From the NCBI RefSeq assembly GCF_000021865.1, contig NC_014034.1:2730001-2762000 (forward strand): a stretch of DNA of 32,000 bases, read 5' to 3'. Numbering within the stretch: position 1 is the first letter of the stretch; each line of letters starts with the position of its first letter. The notes below the pieces were generated by a model. That model did no database searches, was not told where the DNA came from, and saw nothing but the letters and a program-made list of their open reading frames with translations. The position numbers and the translations under genes are program-made. This stretch comes from Rhodobacter capsulatus SB 1003. Lineage in GTDB: Bacteria > Pseudomonadota > Alphaproteobacteria > Rhodobacterales > Rhodobacteraceae. Of the stretch, positions 3,571 to 31,080 are shown one piece after another.

Positions 3571-5307
3571 TCAACTGCGGGCGCGCTCTTCAGCCGGGAT
3601 CGGCTTTTTCAGCGCGATCAGCAGACCCGTCGTCACCAGCGTGCCGACAACGATCGAAAGCGCATAAAGCCCGAGGTTCGTCACCGCATGCGGGATCGCC
3701 AGCACGAAGATCCCGCCATGCGGCGCGACCAGCAGGCAACCCAGCGCCATCGACAGCGCCCCGGTGATCGCCGAGCCGACGATGATCGAGGGGATCACCC
3801 GGGCCGGGTCTTTCGCGGCAAAGGGAATGGCGCCTTCGGTGATGAAGGACAGGCCCAGCACCGCGGCGGCGCCCCCGGCTTCACGTTCTTCCGCGGTGAA
3901 GCGGTTCTTCGCAACCAGCGTCGCCAGCGCCAGACCCAGCGGCGGCGTCATGCCCGCGGCCATCACGGCGGCCATCGGCGCATAGGTGCTCGAGGTCAGC
4001 AGGCCGACGGCGAAAGTATAGGCGGCCTTGTTGATCGGCCCCCCCATGTCGACGGCCATCATGCCGCCAAGGATCAGGCCCAGAACGACGGCATTGGTGG
4101 TGCCCAGCCCCTGCAGGAAGGCGGTCATCGCGGCCAGGATCGCCGCCACCGGCGTGCCGACGACATAGACCATGATCAGCCCGGTGATCGCGGTCGAGAG
4201 CAGCGGCAGGATCAGGACGGGCTTGAGCCCTTCCAGCGTGCGCGGCAGCTTGATCGCATCGCGCAGCCAGCGCGCGACATAGCCCGCCAGGAAGCCCGCG
4301 ACGATGCCGCCTAGGAACCCGGCATTCAGGTTCACCGCCAGCATGCCACCGATCAGACCCGGGGTCAGGCCGGGACGGTCGGCGATCGAATAGGCGATGA
4401 AGCCCGCCAGAACCGGCACCATCAGCTTGAAGGCGGCGCCGCCACCGATCGCCATCAGCGCCGCGGGCAGCGTGCCCTCGACCTCGAAGGCCTTGATCCC
4501 GAAGACGAACGAAAGCGCGATCAAGAGACCGCCCGCCACCACCAGCGGCAGCATGTAGGACACGCCCGTCAGCAGGTGCATATAGGGGCCCGAGCGGGTC
4601 GCGGCGCGTTGCGCCTTGAGCGCATCGACCGTGTCGGCCAGGTTGGTGCCCAGCACGACGCCTTCGGCCAGGGCCGCATCGAGCACCTTGGCCGCGCCCT
4701 TCACCGCCGCGCCGACCGAGGTCTTGTAGACCTTTTTCCCGGCAAAGCGGCTGTCATCGACATGGGTGTCGGCCGCGATCACCACCAGATCGGCGGCCTG
4801 GATCTGCGCCGCGCTCAGCGCGTTTTGCGAGCCCACCGAGCCCTGCGTCTCGACCGCGATTTCCCAGCCGCGGGCGGCGGCGGTCTTTTTCAGCGCATCG
4901 GCCGCCATGAACGTATGGGCAATGCCGGTCGGACAGGAGGTGATCGCCACCACCCTGAGCGGCCTTTGGCCTGTATCTGTCGTCATTTGCGGGGTCTCCT
5001 CTCCGGTCAGGGCAAGGGCCTCGGCCAGAACCGCCGCCGTCTGGGTGACGGCGCGGGCAGTCGAGGTCCGGTAAACGGGTTTCGTGACGAAGCGCACATC
5101 CTCGATGCGGAGGTCGGCGGCGATCAGCACCACATCGGCGGCGGCGATCTCGGCCCCCTGCAGCGGCGCCTCGACGCCCTCGGCAGAGTGGCGTTCGACA
5201 CGGATCTGATGGCCCAGCGCCTGCGCGGTGGCGCTCAGCGCCTCGGCGGCCAGATGGGTATGCGCGACGCCCTTGGCCCCGGCGGTCACGGCAACGATCT
5301 TCGACAT
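3571..5307 (-). CDS. fruA: PTS fructose-specific EIIB'BC component
   Basis: 578 aa. Degenerate N-terminal IIB-like repeat (GAKGVAHTHLAAEAL), a second IIB with the phospho-Cys motif ITSCPTGIAHTFMAADAL, then a polytopic IIC membrane domain. Strong SD GGGGAGGAACCC directly upstream of the ATG. Sits in an operon with fruK and fruB. Confidence 0.93.
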   Translation of the reverse strand: MSKIVAVTAGAKGVAHTHLAAEALSATAQALGHQIRVERHSAEGVEAPLQGAEIAAADVVLIAADLRIEDVRFVTKPVYRTSTARAVTQTAAVLAEALALTGEETPQMTTDTGQRPLRVVAITSCPTGIAHTFMAADALKKTAAARGWEIAVETQGSVGSQNALSAAQIQAADLVVIAADTHVDDSRFAGKKVYKTSVGAAVKGAAKVLDAALAEGVVLGTNLADTVDALKAQRAATRSGPYMHLLTGVSYMLPLVVAGGLLIALSFVFGIKAFEVEGTLPAALMAIGGGAAFKLMVPVLAGFIAYSIADRPGLTPGLIGGMLAVNLNAGFLGGIVAGFLAGYVARWLRDAIKLPRTLEGLKPVLILPLLSTAITGLIMVYVVGTPVAAILAAMTAFLQGLGTTNAVVLGLILGGMMAVDMGGPINKAAYTFAVGLLTSSTYAPMAAVMAAGMTPPLGLALATLVAKNRFTAEEREAGGAAAVLGLSFITEGAIPFAAKDPARVIPSIIVGSAITGALSMALGCLLVAPHGGIFVLAIPHAVTNLGLYALSIVVGTLVTTGLLIALKKPIPAEERARS

Positions 5308-5325
5308 GGGTTCCTCCCCTGCGGC

Positions 5326-6276
5326 TCAGACGGGCGGCAGCGTTTTGACGGTGACGGTGCGGGCCAGCGCGGCAAGGCGCTCCGGCGGCGGCAGATGCGG
5401 GCCGATCTCGCCCAGCGCGCCCAGCGAAAAGGCGGTGGCCAGACGGGCGGTCTCGGCCAGGTCGAGACCAAGGGTGGCGGCATGGATCAGCCCGGCCACC
5501 ATCGCGTCGCCCGCCCCCACGGTCGAGGCGATGGGGGTTGCGGGCGGGATCGCCAGCACCGCCTCGGCGCCGCGCACCAGTACCGCGCCCCCCGCCCCCA
5601 TCGAGACAGCGACCAGCCCGACGCCCGAGGCCGCCAGATCGCGCGCGGCCTCGCGCACGCTCTCAAGGCCGGTCAGGGTGCGGCCCAGATGCGCGCCCAG
5701 TTCCGCGACATTGGGCTTGACGATGTCGGGCCGTGCCGCCAGCGCCAGACCGAGCGCGGGCCCCGAAGTGTCCAGCGCCACCCGCGCGCCGCCCTTGCGG
5801 GCAAGGGCCGCCAGTTCGGCATAGGCCTCGGCGCCGATCCCCGCGGGCAGGCTGCCGCACAGCGCAACCCAATCCAGGCCCTGCGCCAGAAGCTCGGTCA
5901 GGGTCGCGGCCACGGCGTCGAGATCGGCAGGCCCGGCGGCGATGCCCGGAAAGTTCAGATCGGTGACCTGATCTTGCAGCGGATCGACGATCTTCACATT
6001 CGTCCGCGTCGCGCCGGGCAGACGCTGACAGGCATCGACCAGCCCCGTCGCCGCGAAATGGCGCGCGAACAGCGCCGCATTCTCGGCGCCGAGCAACCCG
6101 GTCACCGCGACCCCGTGGCCGACATGGGCCAGGAAGGAGGCGACATTGACCCCCTTGCCGCCCGCATCGATGCGCGAGGCGGCCACCCGGTTCACCGCAT
6201 CGGCGGTGAAGCCCGGCACGGTCACCGTCTGATCGACGGCGGAATTGAGCGAAACCGTGGCGATGCGCAGCGTCAT
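5326..6276 (-). CDS. fruK: 1-phosphofructokinase (PfkB family)
   Basis: 316 aa with PfkB signatures DAGGKGVNVA and GAGDAMVAG. The ATG overlaps the fruB stop in an ATGA (6273-6276). Confidence 0.93.
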   Translation of the reverse strand: MTLRIATVSLNSAVDQTVTVPGFTADAVNRVAASRIDAGGKGVNVASFLAHVGHGVAVTGLLGAENAALFARHFAATGLVDACQRLPGATRTNVKIVDPLQDQVTDLNFPGIAAGPADLDAVAATLTELLAQGLDWVALCGSLPAGIGAEAYAELAALARKGGARVALDTSGPALGLALAARPDIVKPNVAELGAHLGRTLTGLESVREAARDLAASGVGLVAVSMGAGGAVLVRGAEAVLAIPPATPIASTVGAGDAMVAGLIHAATLGLDLAETARLATAFSLGALGEIGPHLPPPERLAALARTVTVKTLPPV

Positions 6277-24198: not shown

Positions 24199-24273
<75 letters not shown>

Positions 24274-25056: not shown

Positions 25057-25650
25057 TGAGCGCCCCTTTCAGGGATAGGGCACTGGCGCGTGGGGGGCTC
25101 CGCCCGACCAACAAACACCAGCACCGGGTTTCGGTGTTCATGGTGAATCTGGTTCGGGCCATCTGGCGTGCTGCTCTCGGCAGGCCGCTCAAGGTTTCCG
25201 GTCCTGCCCCCGGGCCGTGGCGTGGCCCGAGGTCGGGCGCTCCTATCACAGGACAGCCTCGATATTGGCACCACCCTGCCACTTGTCAACCGCAAGATGT
25301 GGCTTGGCGCTCGGGGCGACGCGGGAACACAAAAAGAACATCGCGGGTCTTGTGCTGAGGGCTTCACGGCCCCATATTGGTGGTATGGCTCCCAGAAGGG
25401 CGGGCGCCAGTTACGTGTTTAAACTGTCAAGGCCAGCTTCCGGGGCGGTGCAGATCGCGAGTTCCATAATTCGGGCTCCTTTCGCCAGCCACGCGGGCGG
25501 CGTTGCGGCAATCCGGCAATACCACATTGCCAGGTGCGTCACAGTGTATACGACCACGTCAAAGACGAACGCACACCGCAGAACGGCGGGGGCGGAGATG
25601 TTAAGGGTCAGTGCGTTGACCCAATGCTCCGTCCCCACTCGTGGAGGGCC

Positions 25651-27123
25651 ATGCAAGACGAGTTCGACTTCACCACCAAGGACCTGAAGCACTACCCCCA
25701 TTTTGACGCCCCCCTCTCGCTGAGGGAAATCCGCCGCCTTGTCACCTCGCCAGAGAGGGTTGCGGCCAATTCGTTCTACCCGTTCTTCCTCTATGAGGAG
25801 TCATGGCAGCCGTACCGCTCTGCGGACGCAGCGAAGCCTGACAAGAAGACGCGCCCGATCCGGTACGGCGCCCGGCGCGATGCGTACATCTTCGCATTCT
25901 ACCGGCGGAAGCTGTCGCGCCTCTATGAGGCGAGGCTTCGCACCTTGGGCATTGAGGACTGCCCCATTGCCTACCGCCAAGTTTCCAAGTCGGGACTGGG
26001 CGGCGGGAAGTGCAACATAGACTTCGCCAAGGATGCGTTTGACGAGATTGACCGGCTGGGCGACTGCGTTGCCGTCGCGCTCGACATCAAGGGTTACTTT
26101 GAGAACCTCGACCACCGGCGCATCAAGCAAATCTGGTGCGACCTGCTGGGCGTGGCTGAGCTTCCGCCCGACCACTATGCAGTCTTCAAGAATATCACCA
26201 AGTACCACTTCGTTGACCAGAGGACCACCTACAGGCGGCTGGGCTACTTCGGCCTGCGGGAGCGGAACGGGGAGATGATCGACGGCTTCCTGCGGCCCTA
26301 CCGCGACATGCCCAAGCAGCTCTGCTCCAATGCTGACTTCCGGGCGAAGATATGCGGCGGGGACCCTGCCTATCCGTCCATCATCAAGAAGAACGACAAG
26401 CCCCATGGTGTGCCTCAGGGGGCGCCGATTTCAGACCTCATCGCCAACTTCTACCTTTTGGAGTTCGACGTGGTCATGGCGGCCTATGCTCGCGCCCGGG
26501 GTGGGCGCTACATGCGCTACTCTGACGACATCCTCCTGATCCTGCCCGGGGGTGCCAGCGAGGCCAGCGCCGCCGTCGCCTTCGCCACGGCGGAGATGCT
26601 GAACCACGGCCCCGAGTTGCGGATCAAGGACAGCAAGACCTGCGTGGCACAGTTTGAGCGTGTTGCGGGGGCGCTGCGCTTCCAACACCTCGCGCAGCGC
26701 CCGGACGAACCCGCCAAGAATGGCTTTGAGTACCTTGGCTTCCGCTACGATGGGCGCTGCGTTTATGTGCGCGACAGCACCATTTCCCGCTTCTTCGGGA
26801 AGGTCGCCGGGGCGGCCAAACGGGACGGGCGGCGGCATGTGGAGGCAAACCCGGCGATGGATGCCGGGGACCTGATTCGTGCGTTCGACTTCTCTCTGTT
26901 CTCGCAGCGCTTCAGTCGCGTGAAGAAGGAGAAGCTGACAGACGACTACCGCAGTTGGACGTTCTACTCATACCTCAAGCGCTCGGCAGAGGCGTTCGGC
27001 CCGAAGGGCGACCGCATCTTGAAGCAGGCTCGGGGCTTTGATGACTTCATGAAGGCAAGGGTTTCCGGGGCCATCGTCACGGCGGCAGCCAAACGCAAAG
27101 CGCCCGCCAAAACCGCTGCTTGA
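25651..27123 (+). CDS. Stand-alone reverse transcriptase, Abi/UG (defence-associated RT)-like
   Basis: RT motifs in order: KTRPIRYGARRDAYIFAFY, VALDIKGYFENLDH (motif A Asp), GVPQGAPISDLIANFYLLEFD (motif B), MRYSDDILLILPG (YxDD), LRIKDSKT, FEYLGFRY. They are followed by a ~130-aa C-terminal extension that ends in a K/A-rich tail. The start is set at ATG 25651 (GGAGGG SD); the track GTG at 25534 and ATG at 25624 are alternatives. Confidence 0.9.
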   Translation: MQDEFDFTTKDLKHYPHFDAPLSLREIRRLVTSPERVAANSFYPFFLYEESWQPYRSADAAKPDKKTRPIRYGARRDAYIFAFYRRKLSRLYEARLRTLGIEDCPIAYRQVSKSGLGGGKCNIDFAKDAFDEIDRLGDCVAVALDIKGYFENLDHRRIKQIWCDLLGVAELPPDHYAVFKNITKYHFVDQRTTYRRLGYFGLRERNGEMIDGFLRPYRDMPKQLCSNADFRAKICGGDPAYPSIIKKNDKPHGVPQGAPISDLIANFYLLEFDVVMAAYARARGGRYMRYSDDILLILPGGASEASAAVAFATAEMLNHGPELRIKDSKTCVAQFERVAGALRFQHLAQRPDEPAKNGFEYLGFRYDGRCVYVRDSTISRFFGKVAGAAKRDGRRHVEANPAMDAGDLIRAFDFSLFSQRFSRVKKEKLTDDYRSWTFYSYLKRSAEAFGPKGDRILKQARGFDDFMKARVSGAIVTAAAKRKAPAKTAA

Positions 27124-27691
27124 GCGGCTCCCAGCAGGCGCCTTCCGTCCTAGCTTCCCGTCTTAGGAGCCTCGTGGGCTGCAAGTCTTTGATTTCTTGG
27201 CTCCGGCGGTAGGCGCGGAGGGATTAAACCCAACTCGGCAGAATTGCCGATTAGTCCTTTAATATCAGGGCTTAAGCTGACCGCCCGTCCAGCCCGGCCA
27301 TCATGCGTGTGTGCCTGACGTGCTTCGATTGTGTGCCTAGACTAGGCCGCCCGCACGGCAAGCGCCAGCCGCAAAAGCGATCAGGGCCGCATATTTTGGC
27401 GGAAAAATCCGAGCCACCACCTCGACCGAAGTGCAGCCGCGCAGCCCCCCCCCGGTGGCCGCCCGCCCTGGGCCCGTTCAGGTCGCCCAGCACGCTCCCG
27501 AGGCCGCCCCAGCGCCGCCCCTCCCGCCACCCCGGCACCTCTCCCGGTGCAGCCAAGGGCACCCAAATAGGCGTCCCTACTGCATGGGTGTCCGCCTCCC
27601 GGCTCAGTCAATTTACATTCACAACGTTCGTTGACATTTGATATTTGTTGCCCCACCTTGGTTCCGACAGATCAAACAGGGGGCCGCAGCC

Positions 27692-28357
27692 GTGCGCCAG
27701 TTCGTTATCTACCGCCGTGTCAGCACCGAAGAACAAGGCCGCTCCGGGCTAGGGCTTGAGGCCCAGAGCCGAGACGTTGACCTTTACCTTGCCAACTATG
27801 CCGAGACGCCCTTTGAGGTTCTGGGCGAGTTCCTTGACGTGACCTCGGGGCGGGACAACGACAGGCCAGAGTTGAACAAGGCGCTGGACCTGTGCCGCCG
27901 CACCGGGGCCGAATTGCTGGTCGCCAAGCTTGACCGCCTCTCCCGCCGCGTGTCCTTCATCGCCGCGCTTATGGATGATCCCAAGGTGAAGCTGCGGGTG
28001 GCCTCCATGCCGAACGCGGACAAGTTCCAGCTTCATATCTATGCCGCGCTGGCGGAACAGGAACGGGACTTCATCTCCCTGCGCACCAAGGCCGCGCTTG
28101 CCGAGGCGAAGGCCCGGGGTCAGAAGCTAGGAGGGCTGCGTGATGCCACCGGCAAGCGCAATGAGGCTATCCAGCGGGACGCCCGCAGCTTTGCCGAACG
28201 GGTGCGCCCGATAGTGCAGCCCATGCGCGCCTCCGGGGCCACCTTGGCGCAGATCGCAGAGGCCCTTGGCGGGGCTGGCATCGCGACACCGCGGGGCGGG
28301 GCGTGGACGGCAACGCAGGTCAAGCGGGTGCTGGACCGGCTGGATAGTGTTGCATAA
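27692..28357 (+). CDS. Small serine recombinase (resolvase/invertase family) with C-terminal HTH
   Basis: Start set at GTG 27692 (AGGGGG 8 nt upstream), giving VRQFVIYRRVSTEEQ with the nucleophile Ser context. Also LLVAKLDRLSRR and a C-terminal ATLAQIAEALGGAGIATPRGGAWTATQVKRVL HTH-like segment. Confidence 0.9.
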   Translation: MRQFVIYRRVSTEEQGRSGLGLEAQSRDVDLYLANYAETPFEVLGEFLDVTSGRDNDRPELNKALDLCRRTGAELLVAKLDRLSRRVSFIAALMDDPKVKLRVASMPNADKFQLHIYAALAEQERDFISLRTKAALAEAKARGQKLGGLRDATGKRNEAIQRDARSFAERVRPIVQPMRASGATLAQIAEALGGAGIATPRGGAWTATQVKRVLDRLDSVA

Positions 28358-28526
28358 ATGTCACTCACCGTCACCCTATCTGTGTGTTTTCTCCGATTGT
28401 TTCAGCGGCAGCTTTTGTGACCACGCGACAACCCCCTGAGGCAGCGTAAGAAGTCACAGAAAGCTGCGCCCATATGTGCCCATTGCGGGATTATAACGTG
28501 ATTTCCTTAGGTTGCACCGCGACGTT

Positions 28527-28826
28527 ATGAAAGGGACACGTCAACAAACCGCAAGGGACACCACCGTGACAGCCGCCATAACCCACGCCATGGGCCTGTT
28601 CGAACAAGCCAAGGACCACGGCGTAACCCCCTATGGATCACCTAGCGCACACCGCGCCTTGGCAGCGTGTATCCAATCCTCCGGCCACCTCCTGACCATT
28701 GCCGAGGAAGTCGCGGCGGGGCGGCTGGATGGAGACATTGCGCGTCAGTTTCTGCGCGCCGCCGCCGTCTCGTTGCCTAGGGCCATGAAGGCCGTCGAAA
28801 CCCTCCAGAACGCCGCCAAGCACTGA
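28527..28826 (+). CDS. Hypothetical protein (~99 aa; start uncertain)
   Basis: Track ORF 28512..28826. Helical, normal composition (GLFEQAKDHGVTPYGSPSAHRALAACIQSSGHLLTIAEEVAAGRLDGDIARQFL). Alternative GTG start at 28566 after AAGGGA. Confidence 0.5.
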   Translation: MKGTRQQTARDTTVTAAITHAMGLFEQAKDHGVTPYGSPSAHRALAACIQSSGHLLTIAEEVAAGRLDGDIARQFLRAAAVSLPRAMKAVETLQNAAKH

Positions 28827-28851
28827 CACAGCCAACCGATAGGAAACCGCC

Positions 28852-29199
28852 ATGACCACCACCACGACCCCTGAAGCCGCCACCCTGAACGCCCTTCTGG
28901 CCGCTGCCGGGGACCGCCTTGACCAGATCGCAGGGGAACACCGCCTGAGCCGCGAACAGATCGTCGCCATGAACACCGCCCGCCTTACCGCTGAGTTTCT
29001 CTATGACCTTGCCGAGGGGTTTGCGCGGGGTGAGGCGGCAGCACCTATGCCCCGCAGCCCAGCAATGCCGCTTTCCGCCCGCATGGTCATGGCGAAGCTT
29101 GCAGAGCTGCAATTCGGCTGCGGCGTCCAGATCGCCCCCGACGCGGCGCAATGGCAGGGCCGGGACCATGCCAAGGGGCCGTTTGACGAAGCGGCGTAA
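28852..29199 (+). CDS. Hypothetical protein (115 aa)
   Basis: AGGAAAC SD 6 nt upstream of the ATG, normal composition, followed by a strong terminator. Confidence 0.6.
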   Translation: MTTTTTPEAATLNALLAAAGDRLDQIAGEHRLSREQIVAMNTARLTAEFLYDLAEGFARGEAAAPMPRSPAMPLSARMVMAKLAELQFGCGVQIAPDAAQWQGRDHAKGPFDEAA

Positions 29200-29233
29200 G
29201 ATCGCCCCTCCGGCATCTATCAGAGCAACAAGA

Positions 29234-29262
29234 GGCCCTGCTTCGGCGGGGCCTTCTGCTTT
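29234..29262 (+). terminator. Rho-independent terminator with UUCG tetraloop
   Basis: GGCCCTGC-TTCG-GCGGGGCC (8-bp stem including one G-U pair) followed by TTCTGCTTT, 35 nt after the stop of the 115-aa ORF. Confidence 0.65.
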
Positions 29263-29286
29263 CCGCACGGGCCACGGCTAGCGTCT

Positions 29287-29441
29287 CCCATTCAAGTTGA
29301 AGGGGTGCCGAGGGGCATTTACCCCGCAAAGTTTGCGGGGTGAACACCCAACGAAATTCGTGGGGTGCGCATGTCCTCAACTTGAGGACTTACAGAAGCG
29401 CGAAATTCGCTCTTCCGTCTGCCCCCAGAAAGTTTCTGGGG
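29287..29441. repeat. Phased array of six different odd-length palindromes
   Basis: CCCATTCAA-G-TTGAAGGGG (29287-29305, 1 mismatch); CCCCGCAAA-G-TTTGCGGGG (29322-29340, perfect); CACCCAACGAA-A-TTCGTGGGGTG (29345-29367, 1 mismatch); GTCCTCAA-C-TTGAGGAC (29373-29389, perfect); GAAGCGCGAA-A-TTCGCTCTTC (29395-29415, 1 mismatch); CCCCAGAAA-G-TTTCTGGGG (29423-29441, perfect). Centres are at 29296, 29331, 29356, 29381, 29405 and 29432. Confidence 0.75.
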
Positions 29442-29581
29442 AGGGAAGGCGGGCGGGCGGCGATCAAGCGCAATGACGCTGCGTTTGGTCACATGTCCCC
29501 TACGGGGGCCGTCCCCCCGAGGACGTAACCTTTACTCCGATTAAAACTATCCGACGAGACGGCGCTTCCCCCAAAAGTATT

Positions 29582-29759
29582 GGTGGGAAATTCCCGCCGC
29601 TTCCTCAATGGCGACGAGGTGAGTGAGATTTCTCGCTCCGATCTTGGAACAGGGTCTCAAATTGAGATCATGTTCCCGGCCGGGTATCGACACAGCCTCC
29701 GGTCTAACGTCAAAACTTCTGACGTTAGCTTCCCGAACACCCTGAAAATTTTTCAGGGT
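29582..29759. repeat. Second cluster of palindromes / inverted repeats
   Basis: GGTGGGAA-A-TTCCCGCC (29582-29598, 1 mismatch); TCTCAA-A-TTGAGA (29655-29667); CCCGGCCGGG (29674-29683); CTAACGTCA-aaacttc-TGACGTTAG (29704-29728, perfect 9-bp arms); ACCCTGAAAA-T-TTTTCAGGGT (29739-29759, perfect 21-bp palindrome). Confidence 0.7.
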
Positions 29760-29771
29760 AAGTGCGTCCAC

Positions 29772-29852
29772 ACGGTCAACCTCGTCTCGGAAAGCGGCCT
29801 CTACAAGCTCATCCTCCGCGCCCAGAGGTCCGGCCCTGAACCCTCGGAGTTT
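29772..29852 (+). pseudogene. BRO-N / antirepressor-like domain remnant
   Basis: Frame of track ORF 29580..29975 reads TVNLVSESGLYKLILRAQRSGPEPSEF. This matches the conserved ...SESGLYxLILRSxKPEAxxF core of phage BRO-N domains. The expected downstream WV..EVLP.IRK segment is absent in all frames, and the upstream part is occupied by palindromes. Confidence 0.35.
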
Positions 29853-30000
29853 TCGAGGGTATCGTCGGGAGAAGGTGGCGACGGGCGCAAGCCCGCAGAT
29901 GCTTCAAATACGCCCGCACAGCGCCGTCCTCTCCCGCCCCATATCCCCCTAGGGGAAAACGGAAGGCGCGCCTAGGGGCAATCTTTGAGCCTCTCAGGGT

Positions 30001-30092
30001 CACCCATTTAGGACGCACTACAGGAACAGTCCACCCATTTAGGACGTACCACAGGAGCGGGCCAGTCCGTCCAATTTCCCCTTACTACAGGA
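30001..30092 (+). repeat. Tandem 25-bp direct repeats (two good copies plus one degenerate) upstream of the 307-aa ORF
   Basis: CACCCATTTAGGACGCACTACAGGA (30001-30025) and CACCCATTTAGGACGTACCACAGGA (30032-30056) are 23/25 identical with a 31-bp period. The degenerate third copy at 30068-30092 matches 16/25 and shares the terminal ACTACAGGA. AGTCCGTCC also occurs twice (30064-30072, 30100-30108). Confidence 0.7.
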
Positions 30093-30156
30093 CACCCCAA
30101 GTCCGTCCCCCTCATCCCGTCAAACAACATCAACAATCCCAAGAGGAAACGACACA

Positions 30157-31080
30157 ATGAGCCAGAACACCATCCACCTTACCGAGGCCGAGGCCGTCCG
30201 CATGGCCGATGAAGCCGCCGCCGCCCGCCGCAGCACACCTTACAACGGCTTCCAACCTGCCGCCATCACCTCCGACCGTCACGAAGTCATCATCCGGGGC
30301 GGTCAAGTTGCCGAGGTCAAGAGCGCCAGCAAGACGCTGGGCGTCCCGACCGGCTATGCCGAACATCACCGCCCCGGCTTCATCCGCATTCCCGGCGCCG
30401 GTGAGACGACGATTGCCGCCGCCAAAGCTGCCGGGTTCTTGCCGCATACCTGGCAGGAGGGCGATAAGCTCCCTTTTGACGACGCCCCCAAAGGTCCGCA
30501 ATCGGACCCCCAGCGGGGCAGCGACAAGGCCACTGAGGCGGCCGAAGACAAGCCGCAGGAACGCACCGTTGCAGAGCACCGGGCCAAGGTCGCCGGGGAC
30601 ATTCTGGACCGTGCCGACAAGGCGCTGGGCGCAGAGGTGACGGACAAATACCTGAGCGATGCAGTCGAGACGGGGGTTATCCCCGAGGAAGGACTTCCCG
30701 AAGGTTTCACGCCGGTCATGGTGAAACAGGTCTACCAAGGATACGTCGCCCAAGCTGACGCAGTGCTGGCCCCCGTGGGCGCCTCCGTGGCGTTGCTGCA
30801 GGACATGCTGACCGATGACGAGCTTCGCCAAGCGCGCCATCATACCTTGTCCAAGGACAGCGACAGCCTTGCGGACCTCGGACGGGCTGCGGTCAACCGC
30901 CTCGCCATGCTGCCCAAGACCGACCCCGAGGGCTTCATGCAGATGGTCGCGGACATGCCCGCCGCCGAGCGCAAGTGCATCGACTTCGACAAGAAGCGCG
31001 GGGAATGGCTGGTCAAGATCCCCGGCAAGCCGACCATGAGTTACGGCGCTGCGGTCCGCATGGCCCTTGTCCGCGTCTGA
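30157..31080 (+). CDS. Hypothetical protein (307 aa), phage/island-borne
   Basis: AGAGGAAAC SD 7 nt upstream of the ATG and balanced composition. The antisense ORF 30130..31119 is G/R/A-rich shadow. No family recognised. Confidence 0.7.
   Translation: MSQNTIHLTEAEAVRMADEAAAARRSTPYNGFQPAAITSDRHEVIIRGGQVAEVKSASKTLGVPTGYAEHHRPGFIRIPGAGETTIAAAKAAGFLPHTWQEGDKLPFDDAPKGPQSDPQRGSDKATEAAEDKPQERTVAEHRAKVAGDILDRADKALGAEVTDKYLSDAVETGVIPEEGLPEGFTPVMVKQVYQGYVAQADAVLAPVGASVALLQDMLTDDELRQARHHTLSKDSDSLADLGRAAVNRLAMLPKTDPEGFMQMVADMPAAERKCIDFDKKRGEWLVKIPGKPTMSYGAAVRMALVRV

What the first reader, a model, noticed from the sequence alone, without database searches (positions are those of the whole stretch)
29287..29441. 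Phased array of six non-identical odd-length palindromes with an AA-N-TT core
Six 17-23-bp palindromes lie within 155 bp, three perfect and three with one mismatch. Each is centred on a single unpaired base within a RAA-N-TTY core and has mostly G/C-rich outer arms. The centre-to-centre spacings are 35, 25, 25, 24 and 27 bp. The cores fall into three recurring types: TCAA-N-TTGA, AAAG-TTT and GAAA-TTC. The arms all differ, so this is not a simple iteron or operator repeat of one sequence.

The layout (about 19-bp dyads at a 24-25-bp period) recalls lambda-type replication origins. As single strands, the dyads would form five to six tandem hairpins, like single-strand initiation signals or ssDNA promoters of mobile DNA. 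The track ORF 29340..29528 covering the array is almost certainly not coding.
Basis: seen in the sequence. Interest (0 to 1): 0.7.

Follow-up and report, generated by a model that had tools for sequence, protein, structure and literature searches.

The report
Palindrome tract filling a dead gene
About a dozen different short DNA palindromes are packed into roughly 600 bp inside the wreck of a broken Bro-N (anti-repressor-type) gene, in a small integrated island of Rhodobacter capsulatus SB1003; the pattern is real and far beyond chance, but every related island lacks it, so it is not their replication origin and its function, if any, is unknown.

Summary
The six odd palindromes at 29287-29441 exist as described. 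They belong to a longer tract (29287-29860) of about 13 hairpin-forming dyads, roughly 60 times the window background; shuffles give 0.09 against 8 observed.

The tract fills a variable slot in a 7.7-kb island integrated at tRNA-Asn, between a 115-aa gene and the conserved 307-aa gene. Close relatives carry an intact Bro-N gene in this slot, or nothing. In this window only frameshifted Bro-N fragments remain between the palindromes.

No array was found in any of about 20 related islands or in plasmid, phage, viral or metagenome collections. It is therefore dispensable: not a lambda-type origin, a pac or att site, or the DRT2 RNA, which lies at 25325-25650.

Single perfect palindromes of the same AA-N-TT type do recur in the variable loop of four of five slot Bro-N alleles elsewhere, each with a different sequence.

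My best reading (about 0.4) is DNA-level palindromes produced at a mutational hot spot by inverted duplication or template switching, which piled up after the gene died. The constant AA-N-TT centre is not explained. Protein-bound dyads or cruciforms, and RNA hairpins, remain possible.

The parts
27198..27213 (+). attL of the island: a 16-bp direct repeat, TGGCTCCGGCGGTAGG, of the 3' end of tRNA-Asn. attR lies outside the window, next to the integrase.
   Evidence: exact repeat with L002 16054-16069; tRNA-Asn. Homology with related islands starts at about 27191-27197.
28852..29199 (+). 115-aa island gene that bounds the variable slot on the left.
   Evidence: ADE86299, R. capsulatus SB1003. It is conserved in L003, L014, L016, L017, L023 and L031.
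29233..29254 (+). Terminator-like hairpin AGGCCCTGC-ttcg-GCGGGGCCT with a T-rich tail. This is the last stretch homologous to related islands before the tract.
   Evidence: homology with L016 ends at 29264; homology with L023 ends at 29262.
29265..29550 (.). Block 1 of the tract. It has no detectable homologue and takes the place of the first ~65 codons of Bro-N. It holds the six phased palindromes, further GC-rich hairpins and a 36%-GC stretch at about 29526-29553.
   Evidence: alignment score to the Bro-N 5' part no better than shuffles; no similarity to any held locus.
29287..29305 (.). Palindrome 1, CCCATTCAAgTTGAAGGGG (one A.G mismatch).
   Evidence: DNA hairpin -4.8 kcal/mol.
29318..29344 (.). 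Palindrome 2; the perfect core is 29321-29341, ACCCCGCAAAgTTTGCGGGGT.
   Evidence: -10.8 kcal/mol, z-score -4.6.
29345..29367 (.). Palindrome 3, CACCCAACGAAaTTCGTGGGGTG (one A.G mismatch).
29371..29391 (.). Palindrome 4; the perfect core is 29373-29389, GTCCTCAAcTTGAGGAC.
29395..29415 (.). Palindrome 5, GAAGCGCGAAaTTCGCTCTTC (one C.T mismatch).
29423..29441 (.). Palindrome 6, CCCCAGAAAgTTTCTGGGG (perfect).
29465..29525 (.). Hairpin CAAGCGCA-atgacgc-TGCGTTTG (29465-29487), followed by overlapping GC-rich dyads: CCCCTACGGGG, CGGGGG-ccgtc-CCCCCG (29503-29519) and CGTCC-ccccga-GGACG.
   Evidence: sequence read.
29551..29596 (+). Bro-N remnant A, homologous to L016 codons ~67-82. Its 3' end has been remodelled into the palindrome GGTGGGAAaTTCCCGCC (29582-29598).
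   Evidence: local score 45 against a shuffle maximum of 35. L016 GGGAGaCGCCC becomes window GGGAAaTTCCC.
29604..29650 (+). A second, strongly diverged copy of the same Bro-N segment (LNGDEVSEISRSDLGTG). It contains the dyad GAGTGAGA-tt-TCTCGCTC (29621-29638).
   Evidence: (repeat D4); by-eye comparison with L016, so weaker evidence.
29646..29676 (.). Palindrome GGAACAGGGTCTCAAaTTGAGATCATGTTCC (15-nt arms, 2 mismatches), followed by CCCGGCCGGG (29675-29684).
   Evidence: I2; -8.7 kcal/mol.
29704..29728 (.). Dyad CTAACGTCA-aaacttc-TGACGTTAG. It sits just after the anchor CGACACAG, where allele L015 carries a different palindrome.
29739..29759 (.). Perfect palindrome ACCCTGAAAAtTTTTCAGGGT.
29769..29852 (+). 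Bro-N core remnant, HTVNLVSESGLYKLILRAQRSGPEPSEF (frame 3).
   Evidence: tblastn, 71% identity to L015 Bro-N; weak Bro-N/anti-repressor profile hits only here.
29840..29860 (.). Hairpin ACCCTCG-gagtttt-CGAGGGT. It sits at an internal deletion of Bro-N, apparently made from Bro-N sequence by two short deletions plus substitutions.
29869..29949 (+). Bro-N C-terminal remnant, EKVATGASPQMLQIRPHSAVLSRPISP. It is in frame 1, out of frame with the core remnant.
   Evidence: 89% identity to L016 Bro-N residues 130-156.
30001..30092 (+). Direct repeats CACCCATTTAGGACG(C/T)AC(T/C)ACAGGA at 30001-30025 and 30032-30056, plus a partial copy at 30082-30092, upstream of the 307-aa gene. Relatives have one copy.
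30157..31080 (+). 307-aa core gene of the island family, bounding the slot on the right. Its function is unknown.

Best explanation
The array is a lineage-specific tract of DNA-level palindromes that has accumulated in the remains of a Bro-N (anti-repressor-type) gene. That gene occupies the variable slot upstream of the core operon of a 7.7-kb island integrated at tRNA-Asn in R. capsulatus SB1003.

Shown:
- The slot normally holds an intact Bro-N gene.
- Here only out-of-frame fragments of it survive between the palindromes.
- The tract is absent from every related island examined, so it is dispensable for the island.
- Single perfect AA-N-TT palindromes of unrelated sequence recur in the variable loop of this Bro-N gene in other alleles.

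Inferred:
- That loop is a hot spot where short inverted duplications arise. The likely routes are replication template switching, quasi-palindrome correction, or small palindromic insertions.
- Such changes are tolerated in-frame while the gene is alive.
- Once the gene was inactivated they accumulated and partly duplicated, giving about 13 dyads.
- Existing palindromes may promote further switching nearby.
- On this reading the tract has no essential cis function. Any effect, such as blocking read-through into the core operon, would be secondary.
For: Slot comparison. L016, L017 and L018 (307-aa protein 98% identical), L003 and L015 carry an intact Bro-N gene in the slot. L023, at the same chromosomal site, carries 16 bp there.

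Bro-N remnants in the window lie at 29551-29596, 29769-29852 (frame 3) and 29869-29949 (frame 1).

No palindrome cluster was found in 11 genome loci or in 9 further related contigs.

The symmetry is at the DNA level.
- Complementarity extends to positions +/-1 and +/-2, which cannot pair in a hairpin.
- Spacers are self-complementary in 4 of 7 stems in the tract against 1 of 52 in the background.
- Both strands fold equally well.

There are signs of in-situ remodelling of Bro-N sequence into dyads.
- GGGAGaCGCCC became GGGAAaTTCCC.
- The hairpin at 29840-29860 is derivable from Bro-N by two 5-bp deletions plus substitutions.
- At the anchor CGACACAG, L015 has AGTGCCAAtTTGGCACT where the window has two other dyads.

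One perfect AA-N-TT palindrome sits in the variable loop of 4 of 5 slot Bro-N alleles. The chance per gene is 0.0014-0.0068 by shuffling.

Template switching is documented as creating perfect hairpins in a single event (abstracts listed: PMC8794818, PMC5453318).
Against: - A purely mutational process does not explain why the centre is AA-N-TT in about 10 of 13 dyads and never TT-N-AA.
- It does not explain the G-C to A-T swap next to the centre of the 29582-29598 dyad, which is not needed for pairing.
- The dyad sizes (17-23 bp) and the 24-25-bp phasing of five units look constrained.
- No other non-coding region of the window shows any such accumulation.
- Block 1 (29265-29550) has no traceable ancestor, so its in-situ origin is assumed rather than shown. 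It could have been imported.
- AT-centred palindromes of other kinds are also somewhat enriched in island DNA. This weakens the specificity of the family-wide signal.
Confidence: 0.4

Rival explanations
1. The tract is a double-stranded DNA or cruciform array. An island-encoded or host dimeric protein reads the narrow-groove AA-N-TT centre of each dyad, possibly after cruciform extrusion, which GC-rich arms with an AT-rich centre favour. It builds a nucleoprotein complex that regulates the downstream 307-aa operon or silences the slot.
For: - Two-fold symmetry runs through the centre base, and the SAA-N-TTS core is constant while the arms vary.
- There was apparent pressure to create AA-N-TT in the 29582-29598 dyad.
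- Dyads of the same type occur at the homologous place in relatives, including L005, where the Bro-N gene is inverted relative to the 307-aa gene.
- Metagenomic tandem operators have the same ACCC-N4-AANTT-N4-GGGT format.
Against: - A dimer that reads only the centre gives no reason for the unrecognised arm positions to stay complementary.
- Thirteen different sites for one protein in a dead gene, when relatives have none or one, is unlike known operators.
- No DNA-binding family was detected in the neighbouring small proteins.
- The spacing of 24-25 bp is not an integral number of helical turns.
Confidence: 0.2
2. The tract is transcribed by read-through past the 29233-29254 terminator, as Bro-N is in relatives. 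It acts as a multi-hairpin RNA: a barrier to exonucleases or read-through between the accessory genes and the core operon, or a decoy carrying many AAnUU-tipped hairpins for an RNA-binding protein or RNase.
For: - The fold is very stable (z-score about -8).
- Each unit is a stable independent hairpin.
- The tract lies in the position of a transcribed gene.
- Mismatches are G.T on the + strand in five dyads and A.C in one (my count; not significant).
- From my own knowledge, R. capsulatus is the classic case of intercistronic hairpins acting as mRNA decay terminators (the puf operon).
Against: - No promoter-like or extra terminator-like site is predicted.
- There is no Rfam match.
- The two strands fold equally well.
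- Complementarity of apex positions is not needed for an RNA hairpin.
- The conserved motif is paired rather than exposed, unlike CsrB-type sponge RNAs.
- Close relatives that keep the same flanking genes lack the tract.
Confidence: 0.2
3. The tract is a replication origin (lambda-type dyad iterons plus an AT-rich stretch at about 29526-29553) or a single-strand initiation or ssDNA promoter signal for the island.
For: There are dyads of about 19 bp at a 24-25-bp period, followed by a 36%-GC stretch. Iteron-like direct repeats lie 450 bp downstream, at 30001-30092.
Against: - Islands with the same core genes lack the tract.
- The arms share no consensus.
- No initiator, primase or relaxase was detected.
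- The 307-aa protein has no structural match.
- There are no homologues in the plasmid, phage or viral collections.
Confidence: 0.05
4. The tract is the non-coding RNA partner of the neighbouring DRT2 reverse transcriptase.
For: A DRT2 reverse transcriptase lies 2.2 kb upstream (Drt2, E = 2e-129).
Against: - The DRT2 module is self-contained at 25325-27078. It recurs with its ~326-bp upstream region, which is about 98% identical, in another genome inside the dcw cluster, with no array nearby.
- The module lies outside the island's attL at 27198.
- A recombinase gene, two ORFs and a terminator separate it from the array.
Confidence: 0.02

Closest known systems
REP / BIME clusters (repetitive extragenic palindromes of enterobacteria and pseudomonads)
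   Same: Both are tandem clusters of 20-40-bp imperfect palindromes in non-coding DNA just after a gene. Both form hairpins on either strand.
   Different: REPs are members of a dispersed multicopy family with a shared sequence and a cognate RAYT transposase. Here every unit differs and no other copy exists in the roughly 300 kb examined. No RAYT gene is present. The centre is a fixed AA-N-TT.
Lambda-type origin iterons
   Same: Lambda ori has four ~19-bp units with internal dyad symmetry, GC-rich arms and an A-rich centre at a ~24-bp period, followed by an AT-rich region (my own knowledge).
   Different: Lambda iterons share a consensus read by the O protein and lie in or next to the initiator gene. 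Here the arms are unrelated, no initiator is found, and related islands lack the array.
Baculovirus homologous regions (hr)
   Same: They are arrays of imperfect ~30-bp palindromes centred on a GAATTC core and are often found next to bro (Bro-N family) genes (my own knowledge). Here the dyads have GAA-N-TTC-type cores and lie in and around a Bro-N gene.
   Different: hr units are repeats of one sequence, bind IE1, and act as enhancers and origins in a eukaryotic virus. No homology was found and no evidence links the two. It is an analogy only.
Rickettsia palindromic elements (in-frame selfish palindromes)
   Same: They are palindromic DNA sitting in-frame in surface-loop-coding parts of intact genes (my own knowledge). 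In L003 and L015 a perfect palindrome lies in-frame in the Bro-N variable loop.
   Different: RPEs are 100-150 bp and form sequence families. The units here are 13-31 bp and share only the AA-N-TT centre.
Hairpins created by replication template switching / quasi-palindrome correction
   Same: These are clustered multi-nucleotide changes that perfect an inverted repeat, giving perfect DNA-level complementarity (abstracts: PMC8794818, PMC5453318). Two dyads here are derivable from Bro-N sequence by such clustered changes.
   Different: Known cases are isolated events. A dozen in 600 bp with a common centre motif has not, to my knowledge, been described.
CsrB/RsmZ-type multi-hairpin sponge RNAs
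   Same: Both have many hairpins with variable stems and a recurring apical motif.
   Different: In sponge RNAs the motif (GGA) is unpaired and the RNA has a promoter and terminator. Here the motif is itself palindromic, no promoter is seen, and there is no strand bias.

Membership tests
Lambda-type (iteron) replication origin | The repeats share a consensus sequence recognised by one initiator. | tested here: not met
   The arms all differ. The best pair of units is 73% identical over 22 nt, and only the centres recur.
Lambda-type (iteron) replication origin | An initiator gene lies adjacent to, or contains, the origin. | tested here: not met
   There are no Rep, O or primase hits in Pfam, PHROGs or PADLOC for the neighbouring proteins. 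The 307-aa protein model has no PDB match. Translations of the tract hit nothing.
Lambda-type (iteron) replication origin | The element is conserved in relatives that share the replication genes. | tested here: not met
   It is absent from L003-L018, L023, L031 and L034-L036.
Lambda-type (iteron) replication origin | The fragment supports autonomous replication. | not testable with these tools
   This needs a plasmid-rescue experiment.
REP/BIME | A dispersed multicopy family with a shared sequence. | tested here: not met
   No second copy of any unit occurs in the window or in about 264 kb of held loci. The whole SB1003 chromosome could not be scanned.
REP/BIME | A cognate RAYT (TnpA-REP) gene is present in the genome. 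| not tested
   None lies in the window. The genome was not available for scanning.
DRT2 non-coding RNA | It lies immediately upstream of the reverse transcriptase gene and is conserved with it. | tested here: not met
   The conserved upstream RNA region is 25325-25650. The array is 2.2 kb downstream, beyond attL.
ssi / ssDNA promoter (Frpo-type) of conjugative DNA | It sits in the leading region of an element with an oriT and a relaxase. | tested here: not met
   No relaxase or conjugation gene is present in the 7.7-kb island.
ssi / ssDNA promoter (Frpo-type) of conjugative DNA | It is active on one specific strand as single-stranded DNA. | tested here: inconclusive
   Both strands fold equally. 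Activity is not testable here.
Intrinsic terminators | A GC-rich hairpin followed by a T/U run. | tested here: not met
   Only the 29240-29252 hairpin upstream of the tract qualifies. None of the dyads does.
Known RNA families (Rfam 15) | A covariance-model match at the gathering score. | tested here: not met
   Only the tRNA matches in the window. The best sub-threshold hits in 29150-30200 are noise.
In-frame palindromic elements (RPE-like) | The palindrome is inserted in-frame in an otherwise intact gene. | tested here: met
   The L003 and L015 Bro-N genes are intact, each with a perfect AA-N-TT palindrome in the variable loop. In the window itself the gene is broken.
In-frame palindromic elements (RPE-like) | The copies form a sequence family. 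| tested here: not met
   The copies share only the AA-N-TT centre.

The most novel reading that the evidence does not exclude
AA-N-TT-centred perfect palindromes may be a distinct class of very short (13-30 bp) palindromes. They would be generated de novo, or be self-propagating, and be produced or selected by an activity specific to this Rhodobacterales island family. They would colonise the variable loop of its Bro-N gene in-frame, turn over rapidly (a different sequence at the same site in each allele), and expand into arrays when the gene dies. That would be a bacterial micro-scale analogue of Rickettsia palindromic elements or baculovirus hr/bro associations, with a sequence-specific centre recognised by an unknown protein.
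Probability: 0.15. Interest if true: 0.7.

Novelty: new variant of a known kind. Interest (0 to 1): 0.42.

Why it matters
If the tract is only debris from a palindrome-generating hot spot, it is still an unusually clean natural example of hairpins being born from coding sequence. Ancestral-like alleles are available for comparison, and the host, R. capsulatus SB1003, is genetically tractable.

If instead the AA-N-TT dyads are read by an island or host factor, they would define a new cis-element of an undescribed family of small tRNA-integrated islands. These islands carry an integrase, a Bro-N/ANT protein, a 307-aa core protein and a serine recombinase, and sit next to defence cargo such as DRT2. 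The dyads would also explain why a dyad is kept inside the Bro-N gene across alleles.

Either way, the finding removes a tempting but wrong annotation of this tract as an origin or a retron-like RNA.

Tried and rejected
1. Homologues of the tract. None turned up in any search:
- blastn (distant mode) against plasmids and phages;
- exact or degenerate pattern scans of viral contigs and metagenome contigs. One search found only unrelated tandem identical operators;

2. Conservation in relatives. About 20 related islands were fetched through the 307-aa, 115-aa, recombinase and RT proteins. None has an array. L019 is identical to the window and ends inside the tract.

3. Block 1 as a decayed Bro-N 5' part. 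The global alignment is no better than shuffles, so this is not shown.

4. DRT2 ncRNA. Rejected.

5. Coding potential of the tract. Rejected.

6. Function of the 307-aa protein. The AF2 model has pLDDT 68.5 and no PDB fold match at E<=0.001. Pfam, PHROGs and PADLOC gave nothing. IMG/VR has no relatives.

7. Literature. No paper mentions the locus. The guessed locus tags rcc02550-55 returned nothing. The R. capsulatus sRNA survey has no supplement held and no relevant mention.

8. Strand assignment from wobble pairs. I counted 5 G.T against 1 A.C, which is suggestive only; the folding energies are equal.

9. Paralogy of units 2 and 3 with compensatory changes. Arm identity of 7/10 is not significant given the composition, so I make no such claim.

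Full report
**1. The observation**

Reading 28800-30400 and running an explicit palindrome scan confirm the six odd-length dyads at the stated coordinates. Three are perfect and three have one mismatch. Their centres are 35, 25, 25, 24 and 27 bp apart, and their cores are TCAA-N-TTGA, AAA-G-TTT and GAA-A-TTC.

The feature is larger than reported. Further dyads follow up to 29860:
- 29465-29487
- 29503-29519
- 29582-29598
- 29621-29638
- 29646-29676
- 29675-29684
- 29704-29728
- 29739-29759
- 29840-29860

With arms of at least 8 matched pairs, 8 dyads lie in 29201-29900 and 6 in the remaining 31 kb. One thousand dinucleotide shuffles of the 700-bp stretch gave a mean of 0.089 and a maximum of 2.

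The dyads are true palindromes through the centre. Stems elsewhere in the window almost never have a self-complementary spacer (1 of 52), while 4 of 7 in the tract do. All five perfect palindromes in the tract have an AA-N-TT centre, against none of 12 elsewhere in the window.

Each unit is a stable hairpin as single-stranded DNA. The 606-nt stretch folds far better than shuffles on both strands alike, with z-scores of -7.9 and -8.8.

**2. Context**

The window is Rhodobacter capsulatus SB1003-type DNA; the proteins match ADE86296, ADE86297 and ADE86299.

A tRNA-Thr lies at 24199-24273. A DRT2 reverse transcriptase follows at 25534/25651-27123.

A 16-bp repeat of the 3' end of a downstream tRNA-Asn sits at 27198-27213. 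It marks the left end of a roughly 7.7-kb island. The island's gene order is: Pin-like serine recombinase, two small ORFs (the second 115 aa), the tract, a 307-aa gene, three small genes, a Bro-N/ANT anti-repressor-like gene and a tyrosine integrase.

The DRT2 module lies outside the island. It recurs on its own, with a ~326-bp upstream region about 98% identical, inside the dcw cluster of another genome. The array is therefore not the DRT2 RNA.

**3. Comparative result**

The 307-aa protein defines a small family confined to Rhodobacterales. I fetched about 20 related islands. None has a palindrome cluster.

The slot between the 115-aa gene and the 307-aa gene is variable:
- an intact Bro-N gene in L016, L017 and L018 (307-aa protein 98% identical), L003 and L015;
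- another ORF in L014;
- nothing in L023, a second R. capsulatus strain with the island at the same site, where 16 bp replace window 29263-30083.

Homology to L016 stops at 29264 and resumes near 29782. Inside the window's slot only Bro-N fragments survive: 29551-29596, the SESGLYKLILRAQRS core in frame 3 at 29769-29852, and the C-terminal 27 residues in frame 1 at 29869-29949.

All frames carry stops, and translations hit nothing except weak Bro-N profiles. The tract therefore fills a dead Bro-N gene and is dispensable for the island family. That rules out an origin, a packaging site or an att site for the family. No homologue of the tract exists in the plasmid, phage, viral or metagenome collections.

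**4. Signs of how it arose**

Block 1 (29265-29550, holding the six phased dyads) has no traceable ancestor. In the part that still aligns, dyads sit on remodelled Bro-N sequence:
- L016 GGGAGaCGCCC corresponds to window GGGAAaTTCCC. One mismatch is repaired, and a G-C pair next to the centre is swapped to A-T.
- The hairpin at 29840-29860 can be derived from Bro-N by two 5-bp deletions plus substitutions.
- A roughly 46-bp Bro-N segment seems duplicated and diverged (29551-29596 and about 29604-29650).
- After the anchor CGACACAG, allele L015 carries AGTGCCAAtTTGGCACT where the window carries two other dyads.

**5. An unexpected family-wide pattern**

In four of five distinct slot Bro-N alleles there is exactly one perfect odd palindrome with arms of at least 6 bp:
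- L003 CTTCAAcTTGAAG
- L015 AGTGCCAAtTTGGCACT
- L031 TGCCCGAAcTTCGGGCA
- L005 CATGAAcTTCATG

Each has an AA-N-TT centre and lies in the variable loop between the D-x-D-E and SESGLY motifs. In L003 and L015 it is in-frame in an intact gene. Shuffles give 0.0014-0.0068 per gene for any such palindrome.

Other single dyads of this type lie just after the 307-aa gene in L003 and L006.

In 264 kb of non-array DNA, 9 of 81 perfect odd palindromes are AA-N-TT centred, against about 1.2-1.5 expected. However, TT-N-AA (5) and AT-N-AT (3) are also above expectation, so part of this signal reflects AT-centred dyads being common in island DNA generally.

**6. Interpretation**

- Complementarity at centre positions that cannot pair in a hairpin, together with equal folding of both strands, points to symmetry generated or read at the DNA level rather than RNA selection.
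- Arms that vary yet stay complementary argue against a simple operator for a dimer.
- Multiplicity only where the gene is dead, different dyads at the same site in different alleles, and clustered changes that perfect a dyad all fit a mutational hot spot. Candidate routes are template switching, quasi-palindrome correction or short inverted duplications; one search lists literature showing that such events create perfect hairpins.

I therefore favour, at about 0.4, accumulation of such events after the loss of Bro-N function.

The constant AA-N-TT centre and the regular size and phasing are not explained by this. They keep two rivals alive at about 0.2 each: dyads or cruciforms bound by an island or host protein, and a read-through multi-hairpin RNA acting as a barrier or decoy. 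Origin or ssi (0.05) and DRT2 RNA (0.02) are essentially excluded.

**7. Comparison with known systems**

The tract resembles REP/BIME clusters, lambda iterons, baculovirus hr regions next to bro genes, Rickettsia in-frame palindromic elements and CsrB-like RNAs in one or two respects each. It fails a defining feature of each: a shared unit sequence, an initiator, conservation, or an unpaired motif. I file it as a new variant of clustered extragenic or intragenic palindromes, not as a member of any named family.

**8. Verdict**

This is a real and statistically extreme feature, but it is specific to one island lineage and has no demonstrated function. It is of moderate interest, mainly for the recurrent AA-N-TT dyad in Bro-N loops and as a possible natural record of hairpin birth.

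Noticed in passing
window 25325-27123: A complete DRT2 defence module. The reverse transcriptase hits PADLOC Drt2 at E = 2e-129. A ~326-bp upstream region is about 98% identical to that of a homologue sitting alone in the dcw cluster of another genome, whereas the RT gene is only 84% identical. This region is presumably the template ncRNA. The module lies between tRNA-Thr and the island's attL, outside the island.
   Followed up: partly
window 27198-27213 and L002 16054-16069: A 16-bp direct repeat, TGGCTCCGGCGGTAGG, equals the 3' end of tRNA-Asn. It delimits a ~7.7-kb integrative island (recombinase to integrase). The island belongs to an undescribed Rhodobacterales family defined by a 307-aa protein with no detectable family or fold.
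   Followed up: partly
window 27307-28396: The Pin-like serine recombinase gene, with about 330 bp of upstream sequence, recurs at 82-89% identity as a solitary insert between unrelated chromosomal genes in Rhodobacter xanthinilyticus and relatives (L020-L022). It may be a small mobile module in its own right.
   Followed up: no
window 30001-30092: Direct repeats CACCCATTTAGGACG(C/T)AC(T/C)ACAGGA, two full copies 31 bp apart plus a partial third, lie upstream of the 307-aa gene. Relatives L016 and L023 have a single copy. This is a candidate operator or promoter element that is duplicated here.
   Followed up: partly
L003 4904-4926; L006 6866-6878: Single AA-N-TT palindromes lie just after the stop codon of the 307-aa gene in other islands (L003 TACCCCCTCAAcTTGAGGGGTTA; L006 CCGCAAcTTGCGG). 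In L003 the palindrome sits in a ~37-bp stretch that is absent from the window at the same place.
   Followed up: partly
L005 about 5013-5400 (minus strand): The slot Bro-N homologue of Pelagivirga sediminicola is inverted relative to the 307-aa gene and split over two reading frames near the D-A-D-E motif. It still carries an AA-N-TT palindrome in the loop.
   Followed up: no
L019 (start of contig = window 29672); L034-L036 (contig starts 415-536 bp upstream of the 307-aa homologue): Independent metagenome and SRA assemblies break inside or just upstream of this slot. This is consistent with palindromes or repeats, or with strain heterogeneity there.
   Followed up: no
L031 1011-1027: In this relative the Bro-N reading frame loses all Bro-N homology immediately after the palindrome TGCCCGAAcTTCGGGCA. 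This could be a rearrangement junction at the dyad or a chimeric assembly.
   Followed up: no
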